From Escherichia phage vB_Eco_F26, in the sequence record OP870145.1: a DNA stretch of 64,000 bases; one strand, written 5' to 3'. Position 1 is the stretch's first letter. Each line of letters starts with the position of its first letter. Of this stretch, positions 1,186-23,551 are shown one piece after another. The position numbers were made by a program, and so were the translations under genes. The notes beneath the pieces were generated by a model. The model was not told the DNA's origin and searched no databases. It saw nothing but the letters and a program-made list of their open reading frames with translations.

Positions 1186-2040
1186 TCACAATGAAGAAAA
1201 TTCTTTAACTAAAGCCTGTAATGAAGCCTCTATTGGATATCCATTCTTAACTAACATTTTCCTAAACATCACATGTTTAGGACGATTATATGATATCCAC
1301 AATTCATACAATTTATCTTTATTATCCCAATGATAGCCTTTTCGTCGAGATGCTATATGAGCTTTTCTAATCTCCGGATTTTTCCAACTAGCAGCTACTG
1401 AATTTGATATAGCTATTTTATATTCAGGTTTTGATAAAGCAGCACGAACAGCCTTTTGGTGTTTAATTTTATTTTCTTCGTTATTAAACCATTCCCTTGA
1501 AGCCATTGAAATTTTTTGTTTTGTTTTAAAATTATTTAATCTTTCTTTGTTATCTTTCCTATTTTTTGCTACTGAAAAATATTTTAATGCCCTTTCTCTA
1601 GCAGCATTTCTATTTTGCGGATTTGAATAATATTGTTGAAGCCTTTTTGATATTGTGTCACTTACATCTTGTTTTATAAAACTATATTCAGCAGCTATTA
1701 AATCAACTTCGGCTAAAGATAAATTTTTATATGTTTTTCCTGACATCATTCTATTTAAAGCATTTAGCATTTTTCCATTTTTACCTTTTGCTAATAAGAA
1801 ATGTGCTTTAAAATGATTAAAATGACTTAAATTAACTAAATTCCATGTAGATTTTAAATATTCAGGAAATATTGATTTAGGAAGCACGTGATGTGCTTCC
1901 GTTTTACCTGGAGTTTTAACAGTTGAATTCATAGAAATAAAATTAATATAAGACTTGGCGTCTTCTTCACTCAACGCTAATTTTTCAACTAATTCCTTTA
2001 TTAAAAATTCATCATTAAGGTCAAGTTTAAAATTCTTCAC
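1186..2040 (-). CDS. HNH-family homing-endonuclease-like protein (free-standing, between genes 46 and 47)
   Basis: 284-aa ORF; HNH-like motif EAHHVLPKS...NLVNLSHFNHFKAH; basic C-terminal region with repeated DNA-binding-like modules. Confidence 0.6.
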   Translation of the reverse strand: MKNFKLDLNDEFLIKELVEKLALSEEDAKSYINFISMNSTVKTPGKTEAHHVLPKSIFPEYLKSTWNLVNLSHFNHFKAHFLLAKGKNGKMLNALNRMMSGKTYKNLSLAEVDLIAAEYSFIKQDVSDTISKRLQQYYSNPQNRNAARERALKYFSVAKNRKDNKERLNNFKTKQKISMASREWFNNEENKIKHQKAVRAALSKPEYKIAISNSVAASWKNPEIRKAHIASRRKGYHWDNKDKLYELWISYNRPKHVMFRKMLVKNGYPIEASLQALVKEFSSL

Positions 2041-2300
2041 AAAAGATTCCTTTTAATGTATCTTTTAGACCATTCTATCATATCATCATAATCTAAAAAG
2101 TATTCATCAAATTCAGCCATGCAAACAACACCTTGTGCTGCTTTTGATGTGATATAAATTATTCCAACATATCTAGAATCTTCTTCGGTATAATCAATAT
2201 TTGCTATGAATTCATCATTAATGTCAAATGTCGAAAACTTCACAATACGCATCCTTAATACAAGATACAGCCATATCTTGTAATGATTTAGGTGTGTCAT
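2037..2300 (-). CDS. Hypothetical small protein (overlaps upstream ORF; may be the 3' part of a frameshifted gene)
   Basis: 87-aa track ORF overlapping 2224-2487 by 77 nt in another frame; direct repeat gacatttgacatt at the overlap. Confidence 0.35.
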   Translation of the reverse strand: MTHLNHYKIWLYLVLRMRIVKFSTFDINDEFIANIDYTEEDSRYVGIIYITSKAAQGVVCMAEFDEYFLDYDDMIEWSKRYIKRNLL

Positions 2301-2487
2301 TATCTAAAATGTTGAAGTTAAAAGATACAGCCCAGTCAGTGCAGACCGTAACCTTTTTAATACAATTATCTTCAACCTCTAACGGTTCAAACCAATATTC
2401 AATAATTTCTTTATGACCAATATCATCTTTTACTTCGCATTCAAAATGCTGACTCATCATAACATTTTTAAATTCATCAAAAGTCAT
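2224..2487 (-). CDS. Hypothetical small protein
   Basis: 87-aa minus-strand ORF, start overlaps gene 47 stop (coupled). Confidence 0.45.
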   Translation of the reverse strand: MTFDEFKNVMMSQHFECEVKDDIGHKEIIEYWFEPLEVEDNCIKKVTVCTDWAVSFNFNILDNDTPKSLQDMAVSCIKDAYCEVFDI

Positions 2488-3503
2488 TGTGTTGCCTCTA
2501 CATATAGCTGATTTGCATATTGAATAAGTGCTTCACGATCAGAATCAGTGATGTCTGGAATTGCATTAATGTATTCTTCCATCAACGTCTGAAGAGATTG
2601 AACTTCAACTTCTTCACTGTCATCTGACTCGACAGAGTTATCAATCTTTGACACAACTCGTAATGAATGCACAACTTTTTCTAGTTCAGATTCGAACTTC
2701 GTTAGATTTTTGTCTACTTCAGTTACTATAACACGTACTGATAGATTTGTAAAATCTTTATAGTCAATTTTTCCTTTAAATGGATAATGAATTCTACGAT
2801 GCCAGGTAGTGTTGTTTGGAATAAATTCCATTCGTTCTGTTTCTGTATCAAACATCCAGAACCCACGAGGGTCATTCTCGTCACCTGCAGTTAGTGTCCA
2901 TGGTGTCCCAATATATCTGACGTTAGCAGCCTCAGAGATAGTATGGAAGTGACCAGACCACACTTCTTTATAAGTCTTAAGGAAATCAGGTTCAAGACCG
3001 TGAGATTTCATTCCTTTATAAAAATAAAATCCGTTCAGTTCCCAGTGACCAACACAAAAAGAAGCAGATGAAGTTTTGATGTGTTCAAGAATTTCACCAG
3101 TATTTTCTTCACACATCCAAGGAATCAAATCAATCAAACACCCGTCAAAATCTACTGTAGTAGGCTTATCATATACTTTAACATTAGGATATTTAGCCAA
3201 AAGCTCAGTAGAGGCATTTGGATGCATTACATTTTTATAGTGGAGATCGTGATTTCCTACAATAGTGTGTAATGTAATTCCAGCATCATCAAGCGTTTGA
3301 ACTATTTCACGGGCAAACTCCATAGTTTTATGTGTGATCGCTTTTCTCACATCAAAAATATCACCATATTGAATCCAGGTAGTAATTCCATTTTTCTTAG
3401 AATATTCTATTGCTTGTTTAATTCCATCAATTTGAATACCGCGAATCCACTCATCATCAGCTTTAACGCCTAAATGCCAATCACCCAAGTTTAGTATTTT
3501 CAT
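2484..3503 (-). CDS. 47: Recombination endonuclease subunit gp47 (Mre11/SbcD-like nuclease)
   Basis: 339 aa, same length as T4 gp47; calcineurin-like phosphoesterase motifs (GDWHLG, GNHD); synteny with gene 46. Confidence 0.92.
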   Translation of the reverse strand: MKILNLGDWHLGVKADDEWIRGIQIDGIKQAIEYSKKNGITTWIQYGDIFDVRKAITHKTMEFAREIVQTLDDAGITLHTIVGNHDLHYKNVMHPNASTELLAKYPNVKVYDKPTTVDFDGCLIDLIPWMCEENTGEILEHIKTSSASFCVGHWELNGFYFYKGMKSHGLEPDFLKTYKEVWSGHFHTISEAANVRYIGTPWTLTAGDENDPRGFWMFDTETERMEFIPNNTTWHRRIHYPFKGKIDYKDFTNLSVRVIVTEVDKNLTKFESELEKVVHSLRVVSKIDNSVESDDSEEVEVQSLQTLMEEYINAIPDITDSDREALIQYANQLYVEATQ

Positions 3504-4104
3504 GGTGTCTTTTCCATCCTAATTTAGCTGCTTTTGAAACTAGTTCTTTAATTTTTCCTTTTGTCCATTCAGGACCAGGAGGTTCATGACATAACATTTG
3601 CTTAACTCCGTTATTATACCATTTTTTACCTTTATTATGTGATGAAGCTTTAAATTTATTTGACCTTCCTTTTACATAACCTTCTGGAATATAAGGCAAA
3701 AAGGCAGATTTTCCTGTTAATGGATCATGTGAATGTATATTTCCTTTACAATTATGAGAACCATATAATGGATGATTTTGTCCTTTGTTATCTCTTCCAA
3801 ATGAACCTTTTGGAGCAGCATATGACATATTAAAGAATAATGGATTTTTAACTGCATCATGCAATCGTTGATAATATAACTCGCATTTAATAGCTTCTTC
3901 ACGCGTATCAAATTCAGCTAAAATGCATGAATCAAATAAGTGAGGATTATCTGAAAGCTCTTTATTATAAATTTTCTTATACTTTTTAGATAAAACTGAA
4001 CCATGATATCCAGCTAAATGCCTATCTAAAGACGTAGATCCAATATAAAAAGGAGGAAGTTTATCTCCACTATATATTGTTAAATAAGTTATATATTTTT
4101 TCAT
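3481..4104 (-). CDS. GIY-YIG homing-endonuclease-like protein (Seg-like)
   Basis: 207 aa; N-terminal YITYLTIYSG...FYIGST GIY-YIG-like module; basic C-terminal half. Confidence 0.6.
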   Translation of the reverse strand: MKKYITYLTIYSGDKLPPFYIGSTSLDRHLAGYHGSVLSKKYKKIYNKELSDNPHLFDSCILAEFDTREEAIKCELYYQRLHDAVKNPLFFNMSYAAPKGSFGRDNKGQNHPLYGSHNCKGNIHSHDPLTGKSAFLPYIPEGYVKGRSNKFKASSHNKGKKWYNNGVKQMLCHEPPGPEWTKGKIKELVSKAAKLGWKRHHENTKLG

Positions 4105-4264
4105 ATATCAAGAACCGTCATTGAAATGCAAAATAAAATTATTGAAATAAATCCATCTGGAGTGCTAAAGAACCCAATCCAACATGCTCTAGTGAATAGA
4201 TAAAATGCAAGAAAAAGTATCACATATCCAAGAAATATCATTATATCAAACTCCGTATAAAGCT

Positions 4265-4282
4265 AAAGGGCCGAAGCCCTTT
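4265..4282 (-). terminator. Stem-loop (GGGCCGAAGCCC) immediately downstream of a-gt; probable terminator/RNA-stability hairpin
   Basis: Perfect GC-rich hairpin with GAAG loop flanked by A/T runs. Confidence 0.5.
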
Positions 4283-5483
4283 ATTTTGTAATAATGTCAA
4301 ACTGTTCTTTAAAGCAGAAGCTTGAATCTTGATGCTGATACAAAAATTCATACGCTTTTTCTCGCTCACGGTCATAAAGAGCTCGGTCAGATGACAGTTC
4401 TTTAATACGTTCAAATGTTGATTCCATGTCATTTTCATCAAACCAAACGATACCGCTATCGTGTGAAATTAATGGAGTGTTATCAACACGGAATTTTAAA
4501 TTTTCGCCAGTAGATTTCCAAAATACTGGAATTGTTCCACATGCGCCAAGCTCGAGATGAGTATATTCTAAAGAACGTTGTAGATATTTTTTATCTAATT
4601 TACTCAGCTGATAACCAAATCCGGATTTACTCATGCGTTCAAGCATTTCGCTATTTACATAACGGTCGAGAATTTGCGTTGGCAAATTAGGAGCAATTTT
4701 AATTTGGTCTACTTGATGAAGACGATAATACTCGTATGGAATTCCTTTTTCTTTAATAGGAATGAACGCTGGAGAACGTTCCAGACCTTCCATAATAGTA
4801 CTTAGTCCTGCAGGTTTAAGATGTTTTTCATGAAAATCAAACATCTGATAAAAGCCTTTCCATGTAGTAGTACGACCAATCCAACGGTTGATATTCATGT
4901 TAATTTCAGAAACATCTTTCCAGTAGGTTGACCGAACCTTCGCAATATCCATAGGAGGCTGAAAATTATATACTGTTGGTGCTTCTTCAATATCATCAAA
5001 CAGAGAAACAGTTTCTGGATACCATTCTTTCATCAGAACTTTATTAAAATCGCCATTATCAGAATGACTAAAAATAACATCAGCTCGACGAACAGTTTCT
5101 TCTAATCCCAAATTTCGACGCAAAGAAAGAACAGAATGATCATGCTGATAAACTACAACACGAATAGAAGGTTTAATATTATCTAAAAGTTTTTTATAGT
5201 TATTAATCGTGGCTTCTTGAACGGAAGTAGCAGGAACAGAATTAATAATTAGAATATCACAATCATTTACCAGCTTAAGTGTTTTATCGTATTCTTTAGC
5301 TAAAATAACTGGAATTGAAAATGATTTATAATCATGCGCGCAATTACGGGTAAATGATTTATCTTTAGCATAAACCAAAGTTACTTCATGACCATTTTTA
5401 ATAAACCAATCACGCTGCTCAAGAGAAAATTTAGTTACACCGCAACCTTCAAGACCCCGAGCCAGAAAAATGCATACTTTCAT
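4281..5483 (-). CDS. a-gt: DNA alpha-glucosyltransferase (glucosylates hydroxymethylcytosine)
   Basis: 400 aa; MKVCIFLARGLEGCGVTKFSLEQRDWFIKNGHEVTLVYAKDKS... matches recalled T4 AGT nearly residue-for-residue. Confidence 0.95.
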   Translation of the reverse strand: MKVCIFLARGLEGCGVTKFSLEQRDWFIKNGHEVTLVYAKDKSFTRNCAHDYKSFSIPVILAKEYDKTLKLVNDCDILIINSVPATSVQEATINNYKKLLDNIKPSIRVVVYQHDHSVLSLRRNLGLEETVRRADVIFSHSDNGDFNKVLMKEWYPETVSLFDDIEEAPTVYNFQPPMDIAKVRSTYWKDVSEINMNINRWIGRTTTWKGFYQMFDFHEKHLKPAGLSTIMEGLERSPAFIPIKEKGIPYEYYRLHQVDQIKIAPNLPTQILDRYVNSEMLERMSKSGFGYQLSKLDKKYLQRSLEYTHLELGACGTIPVFWKSTGENLKFRVDNTPLISHDSGIVWFDENDMESTFERIKELSSDRALYDREREKAYEFLYQHQDSSFCFKEQFDIITK

Positions 5484-5550
5484 TTAATATCCTCTTTGTT
5501 TTGGTTTATTTTATCAAAAAATTTATAAAGCAATATAGGAGCCGAAGCTC

Positions 5551-6216: not shown

Positions 6217-6217
6217 A

Positions 6218-6977: not shown

Positions 6978-7308
6978 TTTCACCTCTTAGCTCAATTCAT
7001 AGATCTATTATATCATAATATTTGAAGATCTATCTTAAAGCATAGAGGATATCAGTTATCTAAGTAAGCAGTATGCTTGGAACACTTTCTCCATCATCTT
7101 TTTAAATTCATGAATATCTATGTAATGATCATTAATATCAGCGCGATATAAAAAGTCTAAAAACTTTTTATGGGTATTAGAGTTAATTCAGAAACATGGC
7201 TTTCCCAATATCCAACACCAGTTTTATTTGGGAAAAATGAAATTTTCATGTATTGGTCAACATAGAAAATACCAAAATTTTCAATAGCAATAGAAATATT
7301 AATTAATT

Positions 7309-7524
7309 TCATACATTCATCAACTTAGCCGCTTCAAGAGCTGCATCTAGTGAATCAAATTGGTCAACATATTCAATCAATTCGCCATAATTGGCATATA
7401 ACCACCATTGGCTAAATTCATACTCAAGGATGAATCCGTTTCCTTCAATTTGAGTTAAACCAATGCCATTTGTATTTACTTCATATCCAGCAAGACGCAA
7501 ATCGTTAATAAGAGCTTCGTTCAT
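7309..7524 (-). CDS. Hypothetical small protein
   Basis: 71-aa co-oriented ORF. Confidence 0.4.
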   Translation of the reverse strand: MNEALINDLRLAGYEVNTNGIGLTQIEGNGFILEYEFSQWWLYANYGELIEYVDQFDSLDAALEAAKLMNV

Positions 7525-8872: not shown

Positions 8873-9196
8873 TTAGTCTTCTATGATATCTCTATCATAT
8901 CCAAGTGAAATGAGAGTTTCTTTGAAGTGTTTAATGTTCTTTTGTCTAGAATCATTGATGAAAATGACTGGATAACGAATGTTAAGAGATGTGAATCCAG
9001 CGCGTTTAGCAAGAGATACAATCAGTGGACGATCATACTCAATCTTACCATTATTTGTAAGAACTTTATAGAAAGTAAAAGGAGCATTAAGCTCCTTTAG
9101 AAGTTTTGTAACTGATTGACATCCAGGACAACGACCTACTTCATCTGGAATTCCATAGACTTCAATCTTATTCTTTAAGTTCGAGTTTTGTTCCAC
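8873..9196 (-). CDS. nrdH: Glutaredoxin-like protein (NrdH-like); start uncertain, possibly GTG
   Basis: CPGC redox motif (EVGRCPGCQ) and glutaredoxin-like fold signature; no in-frame ATG after the upstream stop, GTG at 9196 preceded by AGGA. Confidence 0.6.
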   Translation of the reverse strand: MEQNSNLKNKIEVYGIPDEVGRCPGCQSVTKLLKELNAPFTFYKVLTNNGKIEYDRPLIVSLAKRAGFTSLNIRYPVIFINDSRQKNIKHFKETLISLGYDRDIIED

Positions 9197-9479
9197 GAGA
9201 AATAATTCCTTGGTAAGCCCAATAAGGAGGATTAACAGAATCCTCACCAGAGTTTTCTTCAGGAAAATAAACCTGGATAACGAAACCGGATTCATCAAAG
9301 GTAAAATAAACCGTAGGCAGTTCACCTAACAATTCGGCACGAGCATTAATTTCTTCGAGATCTCGTTCACGTCCAGCCCAAAAACTAGGATTTAGACTAC
9401 ATTCGTAAAAATAATAGTCATTACCGAACATATCAAAACCCTTCCAACTCTCGACCACATACCGCTCAAAACTAATCAT
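9168..9479 (-). CDS. Hypothetical protein
   Basis: 103-aa ORF. Confidence 0.45.
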   Translation of the reverse strand: MISFERYVVESWKGFDMFGNDYYFYECSLNPSFWAGRERDLEEINARAELLGELPTVYFTFDESGFVIQVYFPEENSGEDSVNPPYWAYQGIISRGTKLELKE

Positions 9480-9481
9480 AA

Positions 9482-9697
9482 TTAAGCCTTTTTATCAAGA
9501 ACAGAATTCAGCTTGTTAGTAATTTTATCCAGACGCCCATTGAATTCACTAGAAGATAAGCCCTTTTCTGGAGAAATTAAACTAATCACGAAAAATATAG
9601 CAATAAAAGGAATAAGGAAAATAGCTCCAACTGCCATAAACAGAAAGAATGTTACAGTTGTAAGAAAATCAGCTAAACCTTTACGAAATTTATACAT
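9482..9697 (-). CDS. Small predicted membrane protein
   Basis: 71 aa with a long hydrophobic segment (FFLFMAVGAIFLIPFIAIFFVISLI). Confidence 0.45.
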   Translation of the reverse strand: MYKFRKGLADFLTTVTFFLFMAVGAIFLIPFIAIFFVISLISPEKGLSSSEFNGRLDKITNKLNSVLDKKA

Positions 9698-9812: not shown

Positions 9813-10283
9813 TTAATCATGTTTCCACACCCCATCGGTATTTGACCAAAGCCGCTGATTATCTGATCCTCTCCACAGCTTTTTAGTCGGAAGATTTTTC
9901 TCATACTTCCCATCAATAATAACATCAACATATTTAAGCATTTCTAGTTGTTTAATATCTTCAAACTTATATCCTGTCCACAACCAAATGCTTTTATTGG
10001 GATAAAGATTTTTTACTGTTTGAACGATGCAATGAATCACGTCTCTGTTATCAGGATAAAGAGGGTCACCTCCGGTTATAGTTAATCCTTCTATATAATC
10101 ATTATTCAAACATTCAATTAATTGTTCTAGTGTTTCACCAGTGAATGGAACGCCATTTCTAGCATTCCATGTTGATTTATTATAACACCCTTCGCATTTA
10201 TGCAAACAACCTGTAACGAAAAGAACGGTCCTGCATCCAGGACCATTAACAAAGCAGCACGGGTATATTCTGTCATAATTCAT
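9813..10283 (-). CDS. nrdG: Anaerobic ribonucleotide reductase activating protein (radical SAM)
   Basis: CxxxCxxC cluster motif (GCLHKCEGC); 156 aa from the second Met, the length recalled for T4 NrdG; adjacent to nrdD. Confidence 0.88.
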   Translation of the reverse strand: MNYDRIYPCCFVNGPGCRTVLFVTGCLHKCEGCYNKSTWNARNGVPFTGETLEQLIECLNNDYIEGLTITGGDPLYPDNRDVIHCIVQTVKNLYPNKSIWLWTGYKFEDIKQLEMLKYVDVIIDGKYEKNLPTKKLWRGSDNQRLWSNTDGVWKHD

Positions 10284-11110
10284 AATAATATCCAATTTTT
10301 CCAAGCTTCATCAGTAGAATTACAGCGTTTTAGTATAAGATGTCTAGAAACTTTTATGGCATTTGAGCACTTTTTAATTGAATCATATTTAATACCGTCA
10401 ACTGAAACGGTTTTGCTAGTTGGAGAAATTTTTCCATACATTGGATTTTTTGAACCAACTTGAAGTCCTTTTAAAGCTTTTGAAAGCTTTTGTCTAGATT
10501 CCAATGACATGGGAGAATTCTTTTTACCTTCAATAATTCGCTTGCGATGAAGTTCGCGTTCTTCTTCACTCAAAGAATTGTAATATTTTTTAACACCGTT
10601 TGATATAGATAATTTATCTTTCTCAGACCGCTCTCCAGCTAATTTACTTCTAACATCTTTTCGCTTCATAGCTATGCTTACAGCTTTATTTAAATTTGCT
10701 TGATGCTCTGGCGTACGTTTATATTTCTTTAAAGCACGTGAAATAGCTATTTTAGTTTCTTCTGTTCTCTTTTTACCTTTATTTGCTAAACTATTTTTGC
10801 GGCGATGCTCAAGTGTCTGTTCATAGGCAGTTCCACCTTTTCCACCAGGTTTAATATTATATGTGTTTTCTTTTAGACAATACTCTTCGGTTACAAGTTC
10901 AGCTTCTTTATCATACATTTGTTTTTCATTATCAAAAACATGTAAAATTTCTTTATTAAAATTTTTTCTACCATATTTTAATAAAGCGGCACGAATCAAT
11001 GTTCCTGATCCCATATAACCGTCATTTATGTTATCGGTGCTATGCGCACCGATATATTCCTTTGAATTAATTATATTTGTTATTTTATAAATTATATAAT
11101 ACCTATGCAT
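10280..11110 (-). CDS. GIY-YIG homing-endonuclease-like protein (free-standing, between nrdG and nrdD)
   Basis: 276 aa; N-terminal YYIIYKITNIINSKEYIGAHS GIY-YIG module; repeated basic DNA-binding-like modules in the C-terminal half. Confidence 0.65.
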   Translation of the reverse strand: MHRYYIIYKITNIINSKEYIGAHSTDNINDGYMGSGTLIRAALLKYGRKNFNKEILHVFDNEKQMYDKEAELVTEEYCLKENTYNIKPGGKGGTAYEQTLEHRRKNSLANKGKKRTEETKIAISRALKKYKRTPEHQANLNKAVSIAMKRKDVRSKLAGERSEKDKLSISNGVKKYYNSLSEEERELHRKRIIEGKKNSPMSLESRQKLSKALKGLQVGSKNPMYGKISPTSKTVSVDGIKYDSIKKCSNAIKVSRHLILKRCNSTDEAWKNWILL

Positions 11111-12400
11111 GTTTTACTCGTTTTACCATTTCTTTCATTTTACCTAAATTCCATGGAACAACGCTAGGAGTTCCAAGATATCCGCATGTTCTTCTTATTG
11201 TGTTCATCTTTTTAGGATCAGTTTCTCCACAAATAGAACAAACAAATCCGTTTTCAGTAGGAGTCATTTCATGGGTACTTCCACATGTAAAACATTTATC
11301 TACTGGCATATTAACACCAAAATAATCTAAATGTTGTGCAGCATAATCCCATACGGCCTCAAGGCCTTTCAAGTTATTTTTCATATCAGGAAGTTCAACA
11401 TAAGAAATGTGACCACCTGTCGCAATGAAATGATACGGAGCTTCGCGAGAAATCTTTTCAAACGGAGTAATATTTTCTTCTACTGAAACGTGGAAACTGT
11501 TAGTGTACCAGCCTTTATCGGTAACATCTTTTACACTTCCATATTTTTCGGTATCAAGTTTACAGAAGCGATAGCACAGGTTTTCAGCAGGAGTAGAATA
11601 CAAACTAAAAGCAAAACCGGTTCTTTCAGTCCACTGCTTAAGACGAGCATTCATTTTAGTCAAAATTTCCTGTCCAATATCACGACCGACAAGAATATTC
11701 AATTCGTGAATACCAATGTATCCTAGGGATACTGAACTTCTACCGTTTTTAAATAACTCAATTATGTCATCATCAGGTTTAAGACGAACCCCGAATGCAC
11801 CTTCTTGGTAAAGAATAGGAGCAACAGTAGCTTTAACTCCTTTTAAGGAACTAATTCTACACATCAAAGCTTCAAAACACAGGTCCATTCGCTCGTCGAA
11901 CAATTCAGTAAATTTCTGTTCATTGAACTGTGTTCCAATATAAGAATCTAACGCGATGCGAGGAAGATTCAGTGTTACAACGCCAAGATTATTACGACCG
12001 TCAAGAATTTCATTACCGGTCGAATCTTTCCATACGCTCAAGAAACTACGGCAGCCCATTGGAGAAACTGGAACTGAAGAACCAGTGATAGCTTTATTGT
12101 TCTTAGCTGAAATAATATCAGGATACATTCTTTTGCTTGCACATTCTAACGCAAGTTGTTTAATATCATAGTTTGGATCATCTTTATAAAGATTAACACC
12201 TTCTTCAACAAACATAACAAGTTTAGGAAAAATAGGAGTTATTCCATCACGACCAAGACCTTTAATGCGGTTTTTAAGAATTGCCTTCTGAATCATTCGT
12301 TCGGTCCAATCGGTTCCTGTACCAAATGTAATTGTTACAAAAGGCGTTTGTCCGTTTGAACTAAAAAGAGTATTTACTTCATCATTATATTCAGCATGAG
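11103..12400 (-). CDS. nrdD: Anaerobic ribonucleoside-triphosphate reductase NrdD, exon 2 (C-terminal ~430 aa); 5' boundary approximate
   Basis: Glycyl-radical motif RRTCGYLG and C-terminal Cys cluster; gene interrupted by an intron carrying an endonuclease ORF, as in T4 nrdD (sunY). Confidence 0.85.
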
Positions 12401-13430
12401 TCGCAAATTCATGCCCGTTTATATGAAACAACAAAATTTGGATAGTCCATAGATATGCAACGTTCTTTTATAGCGCTAGGATGAAAATTTAGCGCTTTAG
12501 CTGCTTCTATATAAGACGTATACTTAATACCGTCAACAACCACATATTCAGGAACTTTATGAATAGTAGTCTTAATACTCAAAACAAGAGGATGAGTTTC
12601 GACTTCACTTTCAGTGCAATTTAAATATTCCGCTGCTTTTTTAAAACTTCTAAAAGTTTTATTTTTAAGCTTTATCGATACTTGTTTTTTACTTTTTCGA
12701 CTATTGATATTATTTTGCACATGTTCCTTAGATCTTCCGTTTTTAGCATAATATTCAGCTACAGAAGATTTTATATTGTTTTTATGAGATTCGGATAACA
12801 CTTTACCCTTATGAGCATCTCTTAATTTTTGAATATGTTCTTCAGTATCCGGATGCTTATAAAACTTTTTACCGCCTATGGATTTATTTAAACATTTTTT
12901 GCTATAAAAATATTTACGTATGACCTCTTCTTCATGTTTTAATGCATCTTTATAACTATCAAATGTTTTTAAAATTATCCATTTAGTAGGTGTATCAGTT
13001 TTTAAGCGTTCATTTATATACTTAGATGACGTTGTGTAAGTTTTCCAGTTTGTGGGCTTGTTTTTAATTGTTCTAAATTTTTTATAACCGATATAAATGT
13101 CGCCATTAGAAAACTTAACTAAGTATGTAAATGCGTCTTTATCTTTTATTTTAGTACAACGTCTTTTTATCCATTTCATTGTTTCACCTCGTATTCATAA
13201 GATAATCTTATTTATACAAGATGACTGCTGCATGTCGCCATGCAGATTAGACTATATCTTCATCTTTCGATGCCGGCCGTTTCGAATAGCATTAGCTTCT
13301 ATTCTACACCGCTACATTCATCACGGTTAGTCGTTAGGCATTTAGTTCAAAAGAACATTTAGCACGGGATTGTCTACTAGAGAGGTTCCCCGTTTAGACC
13401 GGTTTTACATGAGCCTGAATTAAATTAACT
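12400..13430 (-). mobile_element. Group I intron in nrdD (approximate bounds) carrying a GIY-YIG endonuclease ORF
   Basis: About 1 kb separates the two nrdD coding segments; contains a 256-aa GIY-YIG ORF and a ~240-nt ORF-free structured region (13180-13420). Confidence 0.75.
12409..13179 (-). CDS. Intron-encoded GIY-YIG homing endonuclease (I-TevII-like)
   Basis: 256 aa; FTYLVKFSNGDIYIGYKK GIY-YIG module; lies inside the nrdD intron. Confidence 0.7.
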   Translation of the reverse strand: MKWIKRRCTKIKDKDAFTYLVKFSNGDIYIGYKKFRTIKNKPTNWKTYTTSSKYINERLKTDTPTKWIILKTFDSYKDALKHEEEVIRKYFYSKKCLNKSIGGKKFYKHPDTEEHIQKLRDAHKGKVLSESHKNNIKSSVAEYYAKNGRSKEHVQNNINSRKSKKQVSIKLKNKTFRSFKKAAEYLNCTESEVETHPLVLSIKTTIHKVPEYVVVDGIKYTSYIEAAKALNFHPSAIKERCISMDYPNFVVSYKRA

Positions 13431-13965
13431 CATACGCCTGGAATGCATCGTATACGTCTTTTTCTGTTTTAGATTGAGCATAATTCAACGCATCAGCGAT
13501 TTGCCATTTTTCTGCATCCTCAATATGTTTTGCATAGGTGCGTTTAACATAAGGAGAAAGTACTTTATCTACATTCGCAAAAGTCGTTCCGCCGTATTGG
13601 TGAGAAGCAACCTGTGCAGTAATTTGTGCCATAATTGCAGTAGCAACACCGATTGATTTAGGAGTTTCAATCTGTGCATTACCGAGCTTAAATCCGTTCT
13701 CAAGCATTCCTTTTAAATCTACTAAACAGCAATTAGTAAAAGGCAATGATATACTGTAATCTAAATCATGAAAATGAATTAATCCAACATTATGGGCATT
13801 TACAATATGACTTGGAAGAATACGACAAGCGATATGTTTAGAAACAATACCGGCCATTAAATCTCTTTTTGTTGGAAAGACGCGAGAATCTTTGTTGGCG
13901 TTTTCTGTATTTAATTCTTTATCTTTATTTGAAATAAAATTTAAAACATCTTTCTCTAAAGACAT
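13430..13965 (-). CDS. nrdD: NrdD exon 1 (N-terminal ~175 aa); 3' boundary approximate
   Basis: Open frame upstream of intron; sum of the two segments about equals the ~605 aa recalled for T4 NrdD. Confidence 0.8.
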
Positions 13966-14777
13966 AATTCTAATTTATCCTTTTGAAATTCTTCGTCTAA
14001 ATATGGGTTCCAACCCATTTTAAACCTTTTGATGAAATTATCAATTCTAAATTTCGGTAAGTTTAAATCCGCAAAAATAGATGATTTACTTTTAAAATCT
14101 GGACCTAAATAATCATATAAAATTTCTGCGTATTTTAACCATAATATATAAGTACCAGATTTAATTGCTCTCGGAGTTTTCCAAGGTTTTACACCATACA
14201 TCGGATTTCCACTTCCTTTATGCCTGATAGAAGATGAAATTCCAATTTTAATTTTAGCTTCCTTTGTGTGCGAAAATCCATGATGCGGATTTTCTTTCCA
14301 GTATTTTTTAGAAGCTTCTGATATTTTCTTTCTGGCTAAATTAGTATGATGCTTTCCATAAAATCCATGATTTTTACCTTTATTACGATTTCTTTTAATC
14401 ATGGTTATTGATTGCTTTTCTCTAGTTTCTTTAGAAGGAGAAATACCATACGTTGTAAATTGACCGTTAGCATATGCTAAATTGAAATACTCTTTATTCC
14501 ATATATCTTTTTCTATATTCTTTTGAAATTCAGCTTCAATGCTAGTTATTTGTTCATCTCCGACTAATTGAAAATATAATATTTCAACTTTCGGCGTTTC
14601 TTTCAATAGAGCTTTTTGAAATTCAGAAGATGACGAAGACGAATAATAAAATTTACCATTTTTATCAATAATATTCGTTCCATCAAAAGTGCAATTAGTT
14701 TTACTTCCAATGTAATAATATGGCGGGGTTTTAGCATTAATTCTATTAATAAATGATAGTTTATATACTACATTCAT
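13956..14777 (-). CDS. GIY-YIG homing-endonuclease-like protein (free-standing, between 49 and nrdD)
   Basis: 273 aa; VYKLSFINRINAKTPPYYYIGSKTN GIY-YIG module; repeated G-x-x-HG-like modules. Confidence 0.65.
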   Translation of the reverse strand: MNVVYKLSFINRINAKTPPYYYIGSKTNCTFDGTNIIDKNGKFYYSSSSSSEFQKALLKETPKVEILYFQLVGDEQITSIEAEFQKNIEKDIWNKEYFNLAYANGQFTTYGISPSKETREKQSITMIKRNRNKGKNHGFYGKHHTNLARKKISEASKKYWKENPHHGFSHTKEAKIKIGISSSIRHKGSGNPMYGVKPWKTPRAIKSGTYILWLKYAEILYDYLGPDFKSKSSIFADLNLPKFRIDNFIKRFKMGWNPYLDEEFQKDKLELCL

Positions 14778-15247
14778 TTTAAACTCTTTCTAAGCTGCTT
14801 CTTAAATGAAGCTATTAACTGTGTTTTAGTGTCAGATTCATTATATTCAAATCCTCTTTGAAGCATCTCAGCCATCATTTCCTCTTTTCCTAAACGAGAA
14901 AATTCCTTTGATTTATCTCCAACGAAGTTAGGGTGAATATTATTTTGGGTGTAATCGGATTTTAAATAAGTAAGTAAATTTTCTAACCATTCAAGATAAT
15001 CAACACCTTGTCCCTTTAAGCCAGAACGATTAAATTTATGCTTCATTTGACCTTCTGCGGCATTGCAGAGATTACAAAGCAATCCACGTACCTTTCCTGC
15101 TTTTGGTCCATTTAATTCATGGTCATGGTCGAGGTGATTAGCTTGAACATCAGGATTTAGTTCTCGTTGGCAAATTAAGCATTTACCATTTTGTGCATCA
15201 TAAAATTTCTGTTTTTCTTTTTTATATAATTTGCCAGTCAATAACAT
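14774..15247 (-). CDS. 49: Endonuclease VII (Holliday junction resolvase)
   Basis: 157 aa; MLLTGKLYKKEKQKFYDAQNGKCLICQRELNPDVQANHLDHDHELNGPKAG... matches recalled T4 gp49. Confidence 0.95.
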   Translation of the reverse strand: MLLTGKLYKKEKQKFYDAQNGKCLICQRELNPDVQANHLDHDHELNGPKAGKVRGLLCNLCNAAEGQMKHKFNRSGLKGQGVDYLEWLENLLTYLKSDYTQNNIHPNFVGDKSKEFSRLGKEEMMAEMLQRGFEYNESDTKTQLIASFKKQLRKSLK

Positions 15248-15288
15248 AATAAACCCTTACCTTAAATAGATAAGGGTATTTATTATTT

Positions 15289-15774
15289 TCAAGTATTGTA
15301 AAACATTTGATTCAATCGCTTATATTGCCGAATCTTTTGGTCAGAAAAAGAAATTTGAGTTTCAAGCCATTCAATGTACTCTGCGGCAGCTTGCATCAGG
15401 TTACCTTCATAGCCATCGTTATTTTCTTGTGCAGCTAATTTAGCTAATGCGTATGAAATACGTTCACCTTGAAAAGCGGCTTTAGGTTTATGAATAGCTT
15501 GATCAACTCGTTCTACGACTTCTTCAATTTCGCCATTTTCTACTGATTCAGTATTCCATAAGCACCAATACGTAATTGGCTTATCGTAGATGTTAATAAT
15601 CTTTCCGTCGGAAAGTTCAATTTCAATAATTCCAGTATCAGGTTCTATATCATCTTCACATTCTTTTGCAAGTTCACGAACTTTAAAGACAGTACCTGCG
15701 CTAAGTTCCGGCCAGTAATTACATAGCCCTGTATCAGCACGATTAATTCTAAACCACTTATCTACTGTAATCAT
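15289..15774 (-). CDS. pin: PinA-like protein (inhibitor of host Lon protease), by size and synteny
   Basis: 161 aa from the second Met, the length recalled for T4 PinA; directly upstream of gene 49. Confidence 0.55.
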   Translation of the reverse strand: MITVDKWFRINRADTGLCNYWPELSAGTVFKVRELAKECEDDIEPDTGIIEIELSDGKIINIYDKPITYWCLWNTESVENGEIEEVVERVDQAIHKPKAAFQGERISYALAKLAAQENNDGYEGNLMQAAAEYIEWLETQISFSDQKIRQYKRLNQMFYNT

Positions 15775-16218: not shown

Positions 16219-16228
16219 TTTTCACCAC

Positions 16229-16618
16229 TTAATTTCGCAATTTATTAAGTTCTTCATAATCAATCCAGGATTCTAGTCCTGATGGCAGGTCACATTCAAT
16301 TTCCCAAAGAAGTTCTTCAATTTTATGAAGACGATCTAGTTCTTCAGCAGGAATAGTAACCATTGACGGAGCTCTTGCTACATTAATATCGTAAATCATA
16401 TTTACCCCCAGTTTGACCATACAATCGCCGTATTTCCACTTAGAAATAGACTTTTCACCATTAGAATAATAAACTTCAAGTTTAGCACGATTATTTTTAA
16501 TTTGAATAACCTTTGCTGTCATCAAAGTTCCATACCCATAATAAACTGCAACTTCATCACCTACATATACCGCGCTTCCGCGGTAATCGTGAATATAGTC
16601 AGTTCCTTCGAGCATCAT
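16229..16618 (-). CDS. Hypothetical protein
   Basis: 129-aa ORF. Confidence 0.45.
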   Translation of the reverse strand: MMLEGTDYIHDYRGSAVYVGDEVAVYYGYGTLMTAKVIQIKNNRAKLEVYYSNGEKSISKWKYGDCMVKLGVNMIYDINVARAPSMVTIPAEELDRLHKIEELLWEIECDLPSGLESWIDYEELNKLRN

Positions 16619-18352: not shown

Positions 18353-18404
18353 GTTCTTCTCACTTTGTTAATGATTTGTACTCCGAGCCATCCTTGGCTT
18401 TAAA

Positions 18405-19436: not shown

Positions 19437-19464
19437 TATACCACATCCTTGTGGTAAAGTAAAC
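19435..19464 (-). promoter_or_regulatory. Early promoter: -35 GTTTAC, 18-nt spacer, -10 TATAAT
   Basis: Minus strand GTTTACtttaccacaaggatgtggTATAAT, 25 nt upstream of the ORF starting at 19436. Confidence 0.55.
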
Positions 19465-20492: not shown

Positions 20493-20500
20493 GGTATTCC

Positions 20501-21409: not shown

Positions 21410-21803
21410 TTTTACTAAATACGCAGAATATGATGGAAAAGACTATATAAGCACCGCATACAGATTGAACTAATACCATTCCAAAGAACCAAATAATATT
21501 ATCAAACAATGTCTGTTTTACGTCGAAAGGACGTAAACTTACAGTAATATTATCGCCTTTTTCTATTGAAGAATACATCTCTGGTGAAATATATTCACTA
21601 AATCTATAACCGTCATTTAGTTCATATACAGCAATAAACGATAAACTAGACCCCTTTCCTTGAGTTCCTGTAAGGGTATTAACTACAGTAACATCATAAT
21701 CTTTATAATGCATATAATCATTAATTGCGTAATAACCATATGCAATTACTATACATAAACAACATATCAATAAATTCAATCTTTTAATTATCAACTGTTT
21801 CAT
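21396..21803 (-). CDS. Predicted membrane protein
   Basis: 135 aa with N- and C-terminal hydrophobic helices. Confidence 0.45.
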   Translation of the reverse strand: MKQLIIKRLNLLICCLCIVIAYGYYAINDYMHYKDYDVTVVNTLTGTQGKGSSLSFIAVYELNDGYRFSEYISPEMYSSIEKGDNITVSLRPFDVKQTLFDNIIWFFGMVLVQSVCGAYIVFSIIFCVFSKIEIE

Positions 21804-21858
21804 AATAATCTCAATTAAAAGGGCTTAGAACCATTATACCATCCTTGGTATAAAGCGG

Positions 21859-22386
21859 TTATGCGAGTACCGTCTTTAACCGTTCTTCAAACTTCCGAAG
21901 AGTATTTTGGCGTTCAGCTCTTTGCTTTTTGTAAGTTTCAATACGCTCTGAAATGAGAGTGTATCGTTCATTTACTGATTCTTTCATAAAATCAGGAATT
22001 TCACGAGAAGCTTTAATCTCGTCAAATTTATCAATAACAGCTTGCTCTTCAGCAATTAAGTTATCATACATCAAAATATCTTTCTTGATGAACTCAATAT
22101 CTTCTTGAGTTACACGAGATAATTTAGATGCTTTATCCTTTTTGTACTGTTCGTTAGTATCACGAGACCAGTGTAATGTACGATTTTTATTCGTATTCTT
22201 GTAAATTTCTACAATACCAATCTCATCAATAATAACGATCCAATTCCAACGGGATTTGTAAATTTGTCCTCCATCAACAGTGATTTCACCTCCGATTGAG
22301 ATGTCATTAAAGAACTTGCTTTGTGCTTCAGATTTAAATTTACCATCGTTGTAATTTACCAAGTTGAAAATATCTTTAGCGTTCAT
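21859..22386 (-). CDS. Hypothetical protein
   Basis: 175-aa ORF downstream of an early promoter. Confidence 0.5.
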   Translation of the reverse strand: MNAKDIFNLVNYNDGKFKSEAQSKFFNDISIGGEITVDGGQIYKSRWNWIVIIDEIGIVEIYKNTNKNRTLHWSRDTNEQYKKDKASKLSRVTQEDIEFIKKDILMYDNLIAEEQAVIDKFDEIKASREIPDFMKESVNERYTLISERIETYKKQRAERQNTLRKFEERLKTVLA

Positions 22387-22414
22387 TTTGTGTTCCTCCG
22401 TAGTTGATAGTTGT

Positions 22415-22444
22415 ATAGTACCACAGAGGAACGGTCTTGTAAAC
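22415..22444 (-). promoter_or_regulatory. Early promoter (-35 GTTTAC / -10 TACTAT) within a conserved module tagttgatagttgtatagtaccac
   Basis: One of five copies of this module (also near 24551, 28123, 38181, 38531). Confidence 0.55.
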
Positions 22445-22446
22445 CA

Positions 22447-22761
22447 CTAAAAGAAACTTCTTTCACAATTTTTTCCACTGAACCACGCGCTCACTGCTTT
22501 CTTAGTCTCAGGAGCAGTGTTATCCATAAACCATTCAAAGGCAGCCTTTTTATGATTCTGGAGGGCTTCTCGAGCTTTAATCTGCTCACGGTCTATTAAC
22601 ACTAACATATGAGCCTTTCTTGTCACCAAGGGCTTCTTATGATTCTTGGAGTATTCCCAGTCATTTGTCCATCGCATCGTTGTTGCGAATTGAAGTACAG
22701 CTTCTTTAATTTTAGTTTCGTAAATTTCACGAGCCTTTGAGTATAACATCATTACCTCCAT
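22447..22761 (-). CDS. Hypothetical protein
   Basis: 104-aa ORF. Confidence 0.45.
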   Translation of the reverse strand: MEVMMLYSKAREIYETKIKEAVLQFATTMRWTNDWEYSKNHKKPLVTRKAHMLVLIDREQIKAREALQNHKKAAFEWFMDNTAPETKKAVSAWFSGKNCERSFF

Positions 22762-22831
22762 TTACCAGTTTAATTCTAGTCATCTTTTTAATGGCAGTCC
22801 ATATAATCTATTTCTGAACTTCCTTTTTGTC

Positions 22832-23551
22832 TTAGGATTCTTCTAAATGTCTTTTCTGAAAAGTTGATACCATACTACGATACGGTTCATTTGGATATCC
22901 GTGTTTTATAGCTTCCTTTGTAAATTTTCTCCATCCATATTTAGTTTCTTTCCAAAGCTCGAATAATTCATCTTCATACTGCCATATAGTTAAATGAGAA
23001 CGCTTTGCAGCTTTAATTCCATTAATATGCTTTTCTTTTACTGTAGGATTGCTTAGTTTCTTTTTAATAATATTACTAACTTTTCTAACAAAAACTGGGT
23101 CCTTATATCGTTGCGAAGTTTTTATTGAAGTGTTTAATTTAGCTTCCGGCGTGGATGTGACCTCTTTCATCTTTTTCTTCATATGCTGTATATGATTAGG
23201 ATTTTTCCATAAATTTATAGAATGCTTTTTGCATTTTATCCTAGTTTCATCTGCAACCTTTCCTCCTTCACCCCCGTATGACAGGTTAACACAGTTTTTT
23301 CCATATTTCAATTTACCTGCCATGATATATAATATTTCAGCTTGTACCATTTTATCATAATTATCAAAAACTTCTAAAACCGTTTTTGATAATATGTGGT
23401 CATTTGACACTTTTACACGTTCTATATAATTTCCACTACCAACATACGAATCATTGATGTTATTAGTTATATGTCGACCATAATAGTATTTCTTAATACC
23501 TGTCTTTAAATTTAATATTTCAGTTTTATAGATAGTAAAATATTTTTTCAT
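22832..23551 (-). CDS. GIY-YIG homing-endonuclease-like protein (free-standing)
   Basis: 239 aa; YFTIYKTEILNLKTGIKKYYYGRH...GSG GIY-YIG module; basic C-terminus. Confidence 0.6.
   Translation of the reverse strand: MKKYFTIYKTEILNLKTGIKKYYYGRHITNNINDSYVGSGNYIERVKVSNDHILSKTVLEVFDNYDKMVQAEILYIMAGKLKYGKNCVNLSYGGEGGKVADETRIKCKKHSINLWKNPNHIQHMKKKMKEVTSTPEAKLNTSIKTSQRYKDPVFVRKVSNIIKKKLSNPTVKEKHINGIKAAKRSHLTIWQYEDELFELWKETKYGWRKFTKEAIKHGYPNEPYRSMVSTFQKRHLEES

What the first reader, a model, noticed from the sequence alone, without database searches (positions are those of the whole stretch)
1186..23551. High density of free-standing homing-endonuclease-like genes wedged between conserved genes
HNH-like (1186-2040, between 46 and 47) and GIY-YIG-like ORFs (3481-4104 between 47 and a-gt; 10280-11110 between nrdG and nrdD; 13956-14777 between nrdD and 49; 22832-23551 in the nrdC region) have no operon-related function and short overlaps with neighbours, typical of selfish Seg/Mob-type insertions. 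Several sit where I do not recall T4 having one. The sites they occupy predict cleavage targets in HEG-less relatives.
Basis: partly seen in the sequence, partly recalled or inferred. Interest (0 to 1): 0.5.

Follow-up and report, generated by a model that had tools for sequence, protein, structure and literature searches.

The report
Homing endonuclease genes in a T4-like phage
This stretch of a T4-like phage genome carries five free-standing selfish nuclease genes plus one inside an intron, all already present and mostly annotated in sequenced relatives, so it is a well-stocked but ordinary example of known biology.

Summary
All five ORFs exist at the stated coordinates on the minus strand, wedged between conserved genes of a Tequatrovirus (T4-like) genome. 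One is a Mob-type HNH gene (1186-2040). Four are Seg-type GIY-YIG genes.

Each element is a precise presence/absence block in seven relatives. Four slots are empty in T4. The fifth holds mobC in T4 and the published segH here. T4's own mobB, mobC and mobD are absent.

All five free-standing genes lack a consensus late promoter. Each starts by overlapping the stop codon of the upstream gene, and HEG1, HEG2 and HEG4 take over the start codon of the downstream gene.

The SegG-like gene is linked to an alternative 75-codon NrdD N-terminus. The gene before 47 is linked to four silent changes in codons 3-6 of gene 47. Both fit homing with co-conversion or target immunity. No cleavage was tested.

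Each element occurs at 98-100% identity in 43-72 deposited phage genomes, including T6. Only the six-fold combination was not found. Verdict: correct interpretation, already known, low interest.

The parts
1186..2040 (-). HEG1: free-standing Mob-type HNH homing endonuclease gene between 46.1 and 46 (284 aa)
   Evidence: It matches phrog_655 'homing endonuclease' at 1.6e-44 and phrog_12434 'HNH' at 4e-15. It is 30% identical to T4 MobD. The family signature E-HHVLPKSIFPE..WN.V.L..H...H is invariant. hhalign against the T4 Mob proteins gives 99.4%. The block 1162-2022 is absent from T4, Bas43, IME537 and FL23, and present in T6, PP01 and Pu-Krd-SF1. The gene uses gene 46's native GTG start and its first 6 codons. 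It is found in 70 phage records.
3481..4104 (-). HEG2: free-standing GIY-YIG homing endonuclease gene between 47.1 and 47 (207 aa)
   Evidence: Pfam GIY-YIG scores 21.4 bits, just below the 22.6 cutoff. phrog_10820 matches at 1e-94. Homologues pair the same N-terminal domain with NUMOD3. In the AF2 model residues 1-95 have pLDDT above 90, and the top Foldseek hits are the I-TevI catalytic domain (prob 0.99) and then UvrC GIY-YIG. The block 3504-4097 is absent from 6 of 7 relatives. It is found in 68 records.
3486..3503 (-). Restarted gene 47 start, with 4 silent substitutions in codons 3-6 seen only in HEG2-carrying genomes
   Evidence: The changes are ATT TTA AAT TTA to ATA CTA AAC TTG. They occur in the window and Bas43 and in none of 6 HEG2-less genomes. 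HEG2 itself uses the original ATGAAA start of gene 47.
10280..11110 (-). segH: free-standing GIY-YIG gene between nrdD and nrdG, in the slot that holds mobC in T4 (276 aa)
   Evidence: It is 99.5% identical to genes annotated segH/SegH in PP01, F2, SYGD1 and T6. It matches NUMOD3 and, below cutoff, the I-TevI DNA-binding domain and SegE_GIY-YIG. It is 45-54% identical to the N-termini of T4 SegB, SegC and SegE. It overlaps the nrdD stop (ATGCATAG) and the nrdG start (ATGA). It is found in 72 records.
12383..13427 (-). Group I intron in nrdD (1045 nt). Exon 1 is 13428-13965 and exon 2 is 11103-12382
   Evidence: The block is precisely absent from T6, PP01, Pu-Krd-SF1 and Bas43, where nrdD reads ...AYEYEVNTL... 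uninterrupted. The 5' exon ends in U and the intron ends in G. It sits at the same site as the T4 nrdD intron with 67% identity. Of 53 predicted pairs, 13 are kept through compensatory changes against T4. There is no Rfam hit.
12409..13179 (-).
   Evidence: It is 56% identical to T4 I-TevII over its full length, E = 3e-100. It matches SegE_GIY-YIG at 26.6 bits, above cutoff. It is the only HEG here with its own late-promoter core TATAAATA, at 13209-13216. Full-length copies occur in 43 records.
13956..14777 (-). HEG4: free-standing SegG-like GIY-YIG gene between 49 and nrdD (273 aa)
   Evidence: It is 40% identical to T4 SegG over residues 1-126 and shares the C-terminal GW.P...ELC.L tail. It matches NUMOD3 at 29.7 bits and phrog_7504 at 7.5e-34. 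Its ATG overlaps the gene 49 TGA, the spot where nrdD starts in T4. The block 13906-14773 is absent from 5 of 7 relatives. It is found in 49 records.
13741..13965 (-). Alternative allele of NrdD codons 1-75, linked to HEG4
   Evidence: This stretch is 64-78% identical to all 5 HEG4-less genomes and 94-100% identical to both HEG4-carrying ones. That amounts to 28-29 nonsynonymous and 25-27 synonymous codon differences in codons 1-75. Codons 76-110 show 0 nonsynonymous differences.
22832..23551 (-). HEG5: free-standing GIY-YIG gene between nrdC.10 and nrdC.9 (239 aa)
   Evidence: It matches phrog_314 'homing endonuclease' at 1.9e-30. blastp gives segH 4e-12 and T4 SegB 8e-12. The GIY-YIG columns are conserved. 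It has no Pfam hit. The block 22836-23566 is absent from T4, PP01, Pu-Krd-SF1 and Bas43. The last 6 codons of nrdC.10 are recoded and the start is an ATGA overlap. It is found in 66 records, including T6, RB32 and RB33, where it is annotated 'site-specific intron-like DNA endonuclease'.

Best explanation
The region holds six homing endonuclease genes (HEGs) of the Seg/Mob/I-Tev kind typical of T-even phages. Five are free-standing promoter-less cassettes and one is intron-encoded.

Shown by sequence:
- Each is a discrete block that relatives either have or lack at identical boundaries.
- Each is in the same orientation as its neighbours and lacks a consensus late promoter. Each starts by overlapping the upstream gene's stop codon.
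- HEG1, HEG2 and HEG4 begin exactly at the start codon that belongs to the downstream conserved gene (46, 47, nrdD) in HEG-less genomes. Each then supplies a fresh start for that gene at its own 3' end.

Inferred mechanism: during mixed infection with a HEG-less relative, the enzyme cuts or nicks the HEG-less allele at or near the junction. T4-type recombination-dependent repair then copies the HEG and adjoining donor sequence into the recipient. The carrier's own allele escapes because the site is interrupted or recoded. The candidate protective changes are the alternative NrdD codons 1-75 next to HEG4, the four silent changes at the start of gene 47 next to HEG2, and the altered last ~50 nt of nrdD next to segH.

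The intron ORF is expressed late from its own TATAAATA promoter. It presumably targets intron-less nrdD near the exon junction, as T4 I-TevII does.
For: Nuclease domains:
- PHROG homing-endonuclease hits for all six, from 1e-94 to 1.9e-30.
- Conserved catalytic columns in alignments with the T4 Seg, I-Tev and Mob proteins.
- hhalign of HEG1 against the T4 Mob proteins at 99.4%.
- An I-TevI-like fold for HEG2.
- Full ORF lengths identical to annotated orthologues.

Mobility signature:
- Identical indel boundaries in every HEG-less genome, and independent assortment of the six blocks among T4, T6, PP01, Pu-Krd-SF1, Bas43, IME537 and FL23.
- Each element is present in only 43-72 records. About 640-790 records match this region at 90% identity or more.

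Linked flank alleles: NrdD codons 1-75 segregate perfectly with HEG4, 3 genomes against 5. The four silent gene-47 changes segregate with HEG2, 2 against 6. The nrdD 3' end segregates with segH.

Expression design: stop/start overlaps and captured start codons. TATAAATA occurs only before the intron ORF. This matches what the review PMC2988022 describes for the T4 seg and mob genes.

segH is named and was shown to home in the paper cited as PMC1275590. Only the title was seen here; the statement that homing was shown rests on my own recollection of the paper.
Against: No cleavage, nicking or biased inheritance was or can be measured here.

Pfam alone gives no hit for HEG1 or HEG5. It gives only sub-threshold GIY-YIG hits for HEG2 and segH.

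HEG1 and HEG5 show no linked flank divergence within 600 bp, so nothing points to their targets.

The linked alleles could reflect co-inherited ancestry rather than target immunity. The comparison sample is small, at 7 relatives.
Confidence: 0.88

Rival explanations
1. The genes are kept mainly because they benefit the phage. They might exclude competitors in co-infection, or trigger amplification of nearby useful genes. On this reading they are not purely selfish passengers.
For: The literature shows such roles for related enzymes. T6 SegB promotes amplification of anti-defence loci (PMC13096335). An intron endonuclease aids interference competition (PMC11620839). Here the HEGs bracket nucleotide-metabolism and recombination genes (46/47, nrdD/nrdG), in line with the 'HEG island' idea of PMC10448857.
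Against: Each element is present in only about 7-11% of related genomes, and the slots are often empty. That argues against a strong general benefit. Nothing in the sequence separates benefit from selfish drive. The mechanism, cutting followed by repair, would be the same either way.
Confidence: 0.15
2. Some of the six are decaying relics that no longer cut DNA, like T4 mobA or the truncated T4 I-TevIII. They would persist only because their removal would disturb neighbouring gene expression.
For: HEG life-cycle theory predicts decay after fixation. HEG1 lacks the GG-DD segment of the T4 Mob HNH motif and gets no Pfam HNH hit, whereas the T4 Mob proteins do. HEG1, HEG2 and HEG4 have captured the start signals of essential or conserved genes, so imprecise loss would be harmful.
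Against: All six ORFs are full length and match the length of their orthologues. The catalytic columns are intact. Identity of 98-100% across dozens of otherwise mosaic genomes suggests recent spread rather than old decay. Pu-Krd-SF1 shows what decay looks like: its mobD is split into two fragments. Nothing like that is seen here.
Confidence: 0.12
3. The six-fold combination is an assembly artefact. A consensus built from a mixed population of T4-like phages could have picked up every insertion.
For: No record among 50,697 covers more than 88% of window 1-24000. None of the ten independent contigs shown that carry HEG2 has all six. If the per-element frequencies of about 7-11% were independent, a genome with all six would be very rare.
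Against: Partial stacks exist in isolate genomes. Lv5cm carries segH, the intron, HEG4 and HEG5. Four of the ten HEG2 contigs also carry HEG1. All junctions keep reading frames and overlaps intact. Biased inheritance is expected to pile HEGs up in one genome.
Confidence: 0.05

Closest known systems
SegH of T-even-like phages (Sandegren, Nord and Sjoberg 2005, NAR 33:6203; annotated in PP01, F2, SYGD1, T6)
   Same: Window 10280-11110 is 99.5% identical in DNA to annotated segH genes. It has the same length (831 bp) and the same position between nrdD and nrdG, in place of T4 mobC.
   Different: Nothing detectable. It is the same gene.
T4 I-TevII and the nrdD (sunY) group I intron
   Same: The intron is at the same insertion site in nrdD. 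The ORF sits in the 3' part of the intron with a late promoter just upstream. The protein is GIY-YIG, 256 aa against 258 aa in T4, and collinear over its full length.
   Different: The protein is only 56% identical and the intron RNA only about 67% identical. This is a distinct allele, shared with IME537, FL23, JK45 and 40 or so other records.
T4 SegG (between genes 59 and 32)
   Same: HEG4 shares the unusual N-terminus (NxVY..F..R...KTPPYYYIGSK.NC.F) and the C-terminal tail. Identity is 40% over residues 1-126. Like SegG, it sits immediately upstream of an essential or conserved gene.
   Different: It occupies a different slot (49|nrdD). It has an inserted middle region with a NUMOD3 motif, making it 273 aa against 210 aa. 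Its target is unknown.
T4 MobD and the Mob HNH family
   Same: HEG1 has the HH...N...H core. It also has a MobD-like C-terminal module (HW..D.LY.LW...NRPK...F.....GYP). Identity to MobD is 30% and hhalign gives 99.4%.
   Different: It occupies a different slot (46.1|46). The GG-DD loop is replaced by IFPEY...W. It gets no Pfam HNH hit. Its family is small, with 7 clusters found.
HEG islands (Barth, Dunham and Seed 2023, PMC10448857)
   Same: nrdD is bracketed by two free-standing HEGs and interrupted by an intron HEG. The HEG in a given slot can be swapped for another, as with mobC, segH, a 279-aa HEG in Bas43, or an empty slot.
   Different: The cargo here is one 1.8-kb gene rather than the islands of more than 10 kb described in that paper. 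Cooperation between the three HEGs is not shown.

Membership tests
GIY-YIG homing endonucleases (Seg / I-Tev type) | N-terminal GIY-YIG catalytic domain with the conserved Tyr, Tyr-x-Gly, Arg, Glu and Asn positions | tested here: met
   In an alignment of the five window proteins with nine T4 Seg/I-Tev proteins, Y, G, S and N are invariant and E75 is nearly invariant. Pfam or NCBIfam hits are partial: SegE_GIY-YIG above cutoff for the intron ORF, sub-threshold for HEG2 and segH, none for HEG5. The HEG2 model matches the I-TevI catalytic domain.
GIY-YIG homing endonucleases (Seg / I-Tev type) | A separate C-terminal DNA-binding region built from NUMOD-type or HTH modules | tested here: inconclusive
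   NUMOD3 is above cutoff in segH and HEG4. The I-TevI DNA-binding domain in segH and NUMOD1 in the intron ORF are only below cutoff. HEG2 and HEG5 have no recognised module. HEG5 shares a C-terminal motif with MobD, SegA and SegF.
HNH homing endonucleases (T4 Mob type) | beta-beta-alpha-Me HNH motif (HH ... N ... H) | tested here: met
   The motif is conserved in alignments with T4 MobB-E and within HEG1's own family. hhalign gives 99.4%, E = 3.5e-21. The model shows strand-strand-helix at residues 47-84 with pLDDT 85-90. Pfam PF01844 does not hit HEG1, although it hits the T4 Mob proteins. Fold searches were uninformative.
Free-standing homing endonuclease gene (intronless homing) | A discrete insertion between conserved genes, present in some close relatives and precisely absent in others | tested here: met
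   Block boundaries are identical across all HEG-less genomes. Occupancy assorts independently among 7 relatives.
Free-standing homing endonuclease gene (intronless homing) | Site-specific cleavage or nicking of the HEG-less allele | not testable with these tools
   Only indirect hints exist: flank alleles linked to HEG4, HEG2 and segH.
Free-standing homing endonuclease gene (intronless homing) | Biased (super-Mendelian) inheritance with co-conversion of flanks in mixed infection | not testable with these tools
   Sharp identity steps next to HEG4 (at window ~13740) and segH are compatible with co-conversion tract ends.
segH | Orthology with the described gene, in sequence and in position nrdD|nrdG replacing mobC | tested here: met
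   It is 99.5% identical to annotated segH in PP01, F2, SYGD1 and T6, in the same slot.
Group I intron (T4 nrdD/sunY type) | Precise absence in intron-less alleles restores the reading frame. U at the end of the 5' exon pairs with G in P1, and the intron ends in G | tested here: met
   The 1045-nt block is absent from four relatives, leaving ...AYEYEVNTL... intact. The boundaries are U|...G|. A P1 helix with a U.G pair is predicted.
Group I intron (T4 nrdD/sunY type) | Conserved catalytic core recognised by a covariance model | tested here: not met
   No Rfam hit, even at E <= 1 on window 11000-14100. The 5' half aligns with the T4 nrdD intron, and 13 of 53 predicted pairs are compensatory. 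That comparison has only two sequences, so it is weak support. Splicing was not tested.

The most novel reading that the evidence does not exclude
The three nucleases around nrdD act as one cooperating unit. They are segH at the 3' end, the I-TevII-like intron ORF inside, and the SegG-like HEG4 at the 5' end with its linked alternative 75-codon NrdD N-terminus. Each would cut a different part of a naive nrdD locus, so that together they drive the whole ~4.5-kb nrdG-nrdD-49 block, including a functionally distinct NrdD N-terminus, through T4-like populations. On this reading the alternative N-terminus is an immunity allele and not just hitch-hiking ancestry. This triple stack was found in only two other deposited phages, Lv5cm and fPS-2, among 961 matching records.
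Probability: 0.25. Interest if true: 0.45.

Novelty: already known. Interest (0 to 1): 0.2.

Why it matters
The finding adds little new. Variable seg, mob and intron endonuclease content is a textbook feature of T-even phages. Every element here is already in public genomes, and one of them (segH) has been characterised.

The modest value lies in three points:
- Four of the elements (46.1|46, 47.1|47, 49|nrdD, nrdC.10|nrdC.9) appear never to have been studied experimentally, as far as my literature searches show. The sequence gives concrete target predictions for two of them: the T4-type nrdD codons 1-75 for HEG4, and the 47.1/47 junction for HEG2.
- This genome matches T4's HEG count over the same 60 kb with an almost entirely different set. 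That qualifies the older statement that T4 is unique in its HEG load (PMC2988022).
- The start-codon capture design shows how insertions avoid harming essential neighbours.

Tried and rejected
- **Rfam for the intron.** Searches at gathering threshold over the whole window and at E <= 1 on 11000-14100 found no group I intron. I kept the intron call on other grounds.
- **PDB sequence searches.** phmmer or hmmsearch against PDB sequences with HEG1, HEG2, HEG5 and the HEG2 family profile gave nothing meaningful.
- **NCBIfam.** It gave only sub-threshold 'group I intron endonuclease' hits for segH and HEG4.
- **nrdD split by a free-standing HEG.** I considered that nrdD might be a genes-in-pieces case, as with Aeh1 nrdA/mobE. 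I rejected this because the 1045-nt block has group I boundaries, aligns with the T4 intron, and is precisely absent in intron-less relatives.
- **Other Seg/Mob genes in the window.** Seg/Mob profile HMMs found none elsewhere. That scan would miss other nuclease families; see the 161-aa ORF under Noticed in passing.
- **The SegH paper.** PMC1275590 is not held, so the SegH cleavage site could not be compared.
- **Named genes in the other slots.** A literature search for segI, segJ, segK and mobF found nothing relevant.

Full report
**What the window is.** Window 1-24000 matches 1109 phage records. The best are Tequatrovirus (T4-like) genomes at about 96% identity, but none covers more than 88%. 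A blastn against the T4 genome shows the whole window is collinear with T4 33815-94179. It runs from inside gene 46 into the baseplate genes, and the early and middle genes lie on the minus strand.

**Checking the observation.** Against T4, the window has extra blocks at these positions:
- 1162-2022, between 46.1 and 46.
- 3504-4097, between 47.1 and 47.
- 10292-11127, between nrdD and nrdG, where it replaces T4 mobC.
- 13906-14773, between 49 and nrdD.
- 22836-23568, between nrdC.10 and nrdC.9.

T4's own mobB is missing at about window 5475-5498. T4's mobD is replaced by two unrelated ORFs (25641-26102 and 26105-26626), as in T6.

nrdD is in two pieces, and the piece between them carries a 256-aa ORF (12409-13179) that is 56% identical to T4 I-TevII.

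**Are they nucleases?** Pfam alone is weak:
- NUMOD3 is above cutoff in segH and HEG4.
- SegE_GIY-YIG is above cutoff in the intron ORF.
- GIY-YIG scores 21.4 bits in HEG2, against a cutoff of 22.6.
- HEG1 and HEG5 get no hit.

Other evidence is consistent:
- PHROGs gives homing-endonuclease families for all six, from 1e-94 to 1.9e-30.
- An alignment with the nine T4 Seg/I-Tev proteins shows the GIY-YIG columns invariant or nearly so in the five GIY-YIG candidates.
- blastp places segH next to SegB/C/D/E, HEG4 next to SegG (40% over the N-terminal 126 residues, plus the same C-terminal tail), and HEG5 next to segH and SegB. HEG2 is only distantly related to these.
- For HEG2 I collected 170 homologues. 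Many pair the same N-terminal domain with NUMOD3, and one is named a GIY-YIG homing endonuclease.
- The HEG2 model has pLDDT above 90 over residues 1-95. Its best structural matches are the I-TevI catalytic domain (probability 0.99) followed by the UvrC GIY-YIG domain.
- HEG1 aligns with T4 MobB-E through the HH...N...H core and shares a C-terminal module with MobD.
- HEG1's own small family has an invariant E-HHVLPKSIFPE..WN.V.L..H...H signature.
- A profile-profile comparison of HEG1 with the T4 Mob proteins gives 99.4%, E = 3.5e-21.
- Fold searches with the HEG1 model were uninformative.

**Identity of the elements.**
- Window 10280-11110 is segH. It is 99.5% identical to genes annotated SegH in PP01, F2, SYGD1 and T6, in the same slot.
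- HEG5 is the 'site-specific intron-like DNA endonuclease' of T6, RB32 and RB33.
- HEG1 is an ORF of T6, PP01 and others, often annotated as hypothetical.
- HEG2 and HEG4 are annotated as putative homing endonucleases in Bas43 and others.
- Record counts in the 50,697-record phage set are 70, 68, 72, 49 and 66 for the five, and 43 for the full intron. About 640-790 records match this region at 90% identity or more.

**Evidence of mobility.** I fetched the homologous region from T4, T6, PP01, Pu-Krd-SF1, Bas43, IME537 and FL23. Each block is either fully present at 98-100% identity or absent with the same boundaries. The six blocks assort independently among the genomes. Counting only these six blocks:

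| Genome | Blocks carried |
|---|---|
| T6 | HEG1, segH, HEG5 |
| PP01 | HEG1, segH |
| Pu-Krd-SF1 | HEG1, segH, HEG4 |
| Bas43 | HEG2, HEG4, plus a different 279-aa HEG in the nrdD-nrdG slot |
| IME537 | intron, HEG5; nrdD-nrdG slot empty |
| FL23 | segH, intron, HEG5 |
| T4 | intron only, in a divergent form |

None has all six. Lv5cm has four: segH, the intron, HEG4 and HEG5. Only Lv5cm and fPS-2 carry all three nrdD-associated elements, out of 961 matching records. Ten independent contigs that carry the exact HEG2 protein show further combinations, again never all six.

**Junction anatomy.**
- **HEG1.** It starts at the GTG that is gene 46's start in T4, overlapping the 46.1 stop, and keeps the first six codons (MKNFKL). 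A 9-nt repeat, TTTAAACTT, marks both ends. A new ATG (MKSFKL...) restarts gene 46 13 nt after the HEG1 stop.
- **HEG2.** It starts at gene 47's ATGAAA, overlapping the 47.1 stop. Gene 47 restarts inside the HEG2 3' end.
- **HEG4.** Its ATG overlaps the gene 49 TGA, exactly where nrdD starts in T4.
- **HEG5.** Its block recodes the last six codons of nrdC.10 and creates an ATGA overlap.
- **segH.** It overlaps the nrdD stop and the nrdG start.

None of the five has a consensus late-promoter core upstream. The only TATAAATA in the first 27 kb (13209-13216) sits 37 nt before the intron ORF. This is the promoter-less, translationally coupled design described for several T4 seg and mob genes in PMC2988022.

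**Linked flank alleles.**
- The first ~225 nt of nrdD (13741-13965) are 64-78% identical to all five HEG4-less genomes, but 94-100% identical to both HEG4 carriers.
- At the protein level, codons 1-75 differ at 28-29 nonsynonymous and 25-27 synonymous codons. Codons 76-110 show no nonsynonymous change. The association is perfect across eight genomes.
- Codons 3-6 of gene 47 carry four silent changes only in the two HEG2 carriers.
- The last ~50 nt of nrdD differ between segH carriers and the rest.
- HEG1 and HEG5 show no such linkage within 600 bp.

These patterns are what co-conversion or target-site immunity would leave. They give testable target predictions, but they do not prove cleavage.

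**The intron.**
- The 1045-nt block 12383-13427 is absent from four relatives, leaving ...AYEYEVNTL... intact. The 5' exon ends in U and the intron ends in G.
- It lies at the same site as the T4 nrdD intron but is only about 67% identical.
- The two 5' halves fold into a common structure, with a P1 helix containing the U.G pair. Of 53 predicted pairs, 13 are kept by compensatory changes.
- Rfam finds nothing. I note this as a failed membership test for the covariance model, outweighed by the direct comparison with T4.

**How unusual is the density?** Six HEGs in 24 kb is the highest count I saw for this region; T4 has four and the others have two to four. Over the whole window the count equals T4's six in the same 60 kb. 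Only the intron endonuclease is shared with T4, and that at 56% identity. The elements are known. The combination was not found in the collections searched.

**Verdict.** The biology, Seg/Mob-type intronless homing plus a mobile intron, is well established. Every element is already deposited and mostly annotated, and one is characterised. Novelty: already known. Interest is low.

Noticed in passing
window 41172-41657 (minus strand), inside the tRNA cluster 40647-42117: A 161-aa ORF sits in the slot where T4 has segB. It belongs to phrog_16521, 'unknown function', has no Pfam or NCBIfam hit, and is annotated 'hypothetical' in relatives. Its C-terminal half (residues 53-157) is 32% identical to the C-terminal part of SegB-like HEGs of RB18, HY01 and AR1 at the same locus. 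Its N-terminal ~80 residues form a conserved domain (RGIeF.LTFDEW..WW...CMCR.GD.GPYSL.NIYCAT..QN..D). In other proteins this domain is fused to NUMOD3 or to a sigma-70 region-4 HTH. It may be a seventh homing endonuclease with an unrecognised, HNH-like nuclease domain, but that reading is by eye only.
   Followed up: partly
window 12409-13179 and 12383-13427: The nrdD intron and its endonuclease are a distinct allele from T4's: 56% protein identity and about 67% RNA identity. Megablast with this 1-kb stretch also hit 10 Campylobacter phage records and a few Proteus, Klebsiella and Vibrio phage records. I did not resolve whether those hits are to the intron or to exon sequence.
   Followed up: partly
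window 25641-26626: T4 mobD is replaced by a 153-aa predicted membrane protein (phrog_944) and a 173-aa y05I-like putative transcription factor (PF24449/PF24448). T6 and PP01 have the same arrangement. Pu-Krd-SF1 keeps a fragmented mobD instead.
   Followed up: partly
L008 (Bas43) 10805-11644; L009 (IME537) 10854-11324: The nrdD-nrdG slot has at least four states among relatives: mobC (T4), segH (T6, PP01, FL23 and the window), a different 279-aa putative HEG (Bas43), and empty with a 4-nt nrdD/nrdG overlap (IME537).
   Followed up: partly
L011, L016 and L019, about 13746-14462 or 14616-15332 (opposite strand), between gene 46 and 45.2: Three of the contigs that carry HEG2 have a 238-aa ORF on the opposite strand just past gene 46, with no Pfam hit. 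It is not present in the window, and it could be another mobile gene slot.
   Followed up: no
window 48794-50905 (plus strand): A 703-aa ORF (phrog_5296, unknown function, no Pfam hit) fills the position where T4 has 5.1, segC and 5.3, between gene 5 and gene 6.
   Followed up: no
window 1186-2040, 22832-23551; T4 mobD, segA, segF: A C-terminal module (HW/IW..D.L..LW....K.....F.......GYP) is shared between HNH proteins (HEG1, MobD) and GIY-YIG proteins (HEG5, SegA, SegF). This is an example of DNA-binding domain shuffling across nuclease families.
   Followed up: partly
window 7051-7297, 9173-9496, 16226-16613: Three small window-specific blocks relative to T4 carry short ORFs: 7157-7312, 9168-9479 (phrog_2749, unknown function) and 16229-16618 (DUF7205 with an antitoxin-like phrog_3402 tail). 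These are variable accessory genes and not HEGs.
   Followed up: partly
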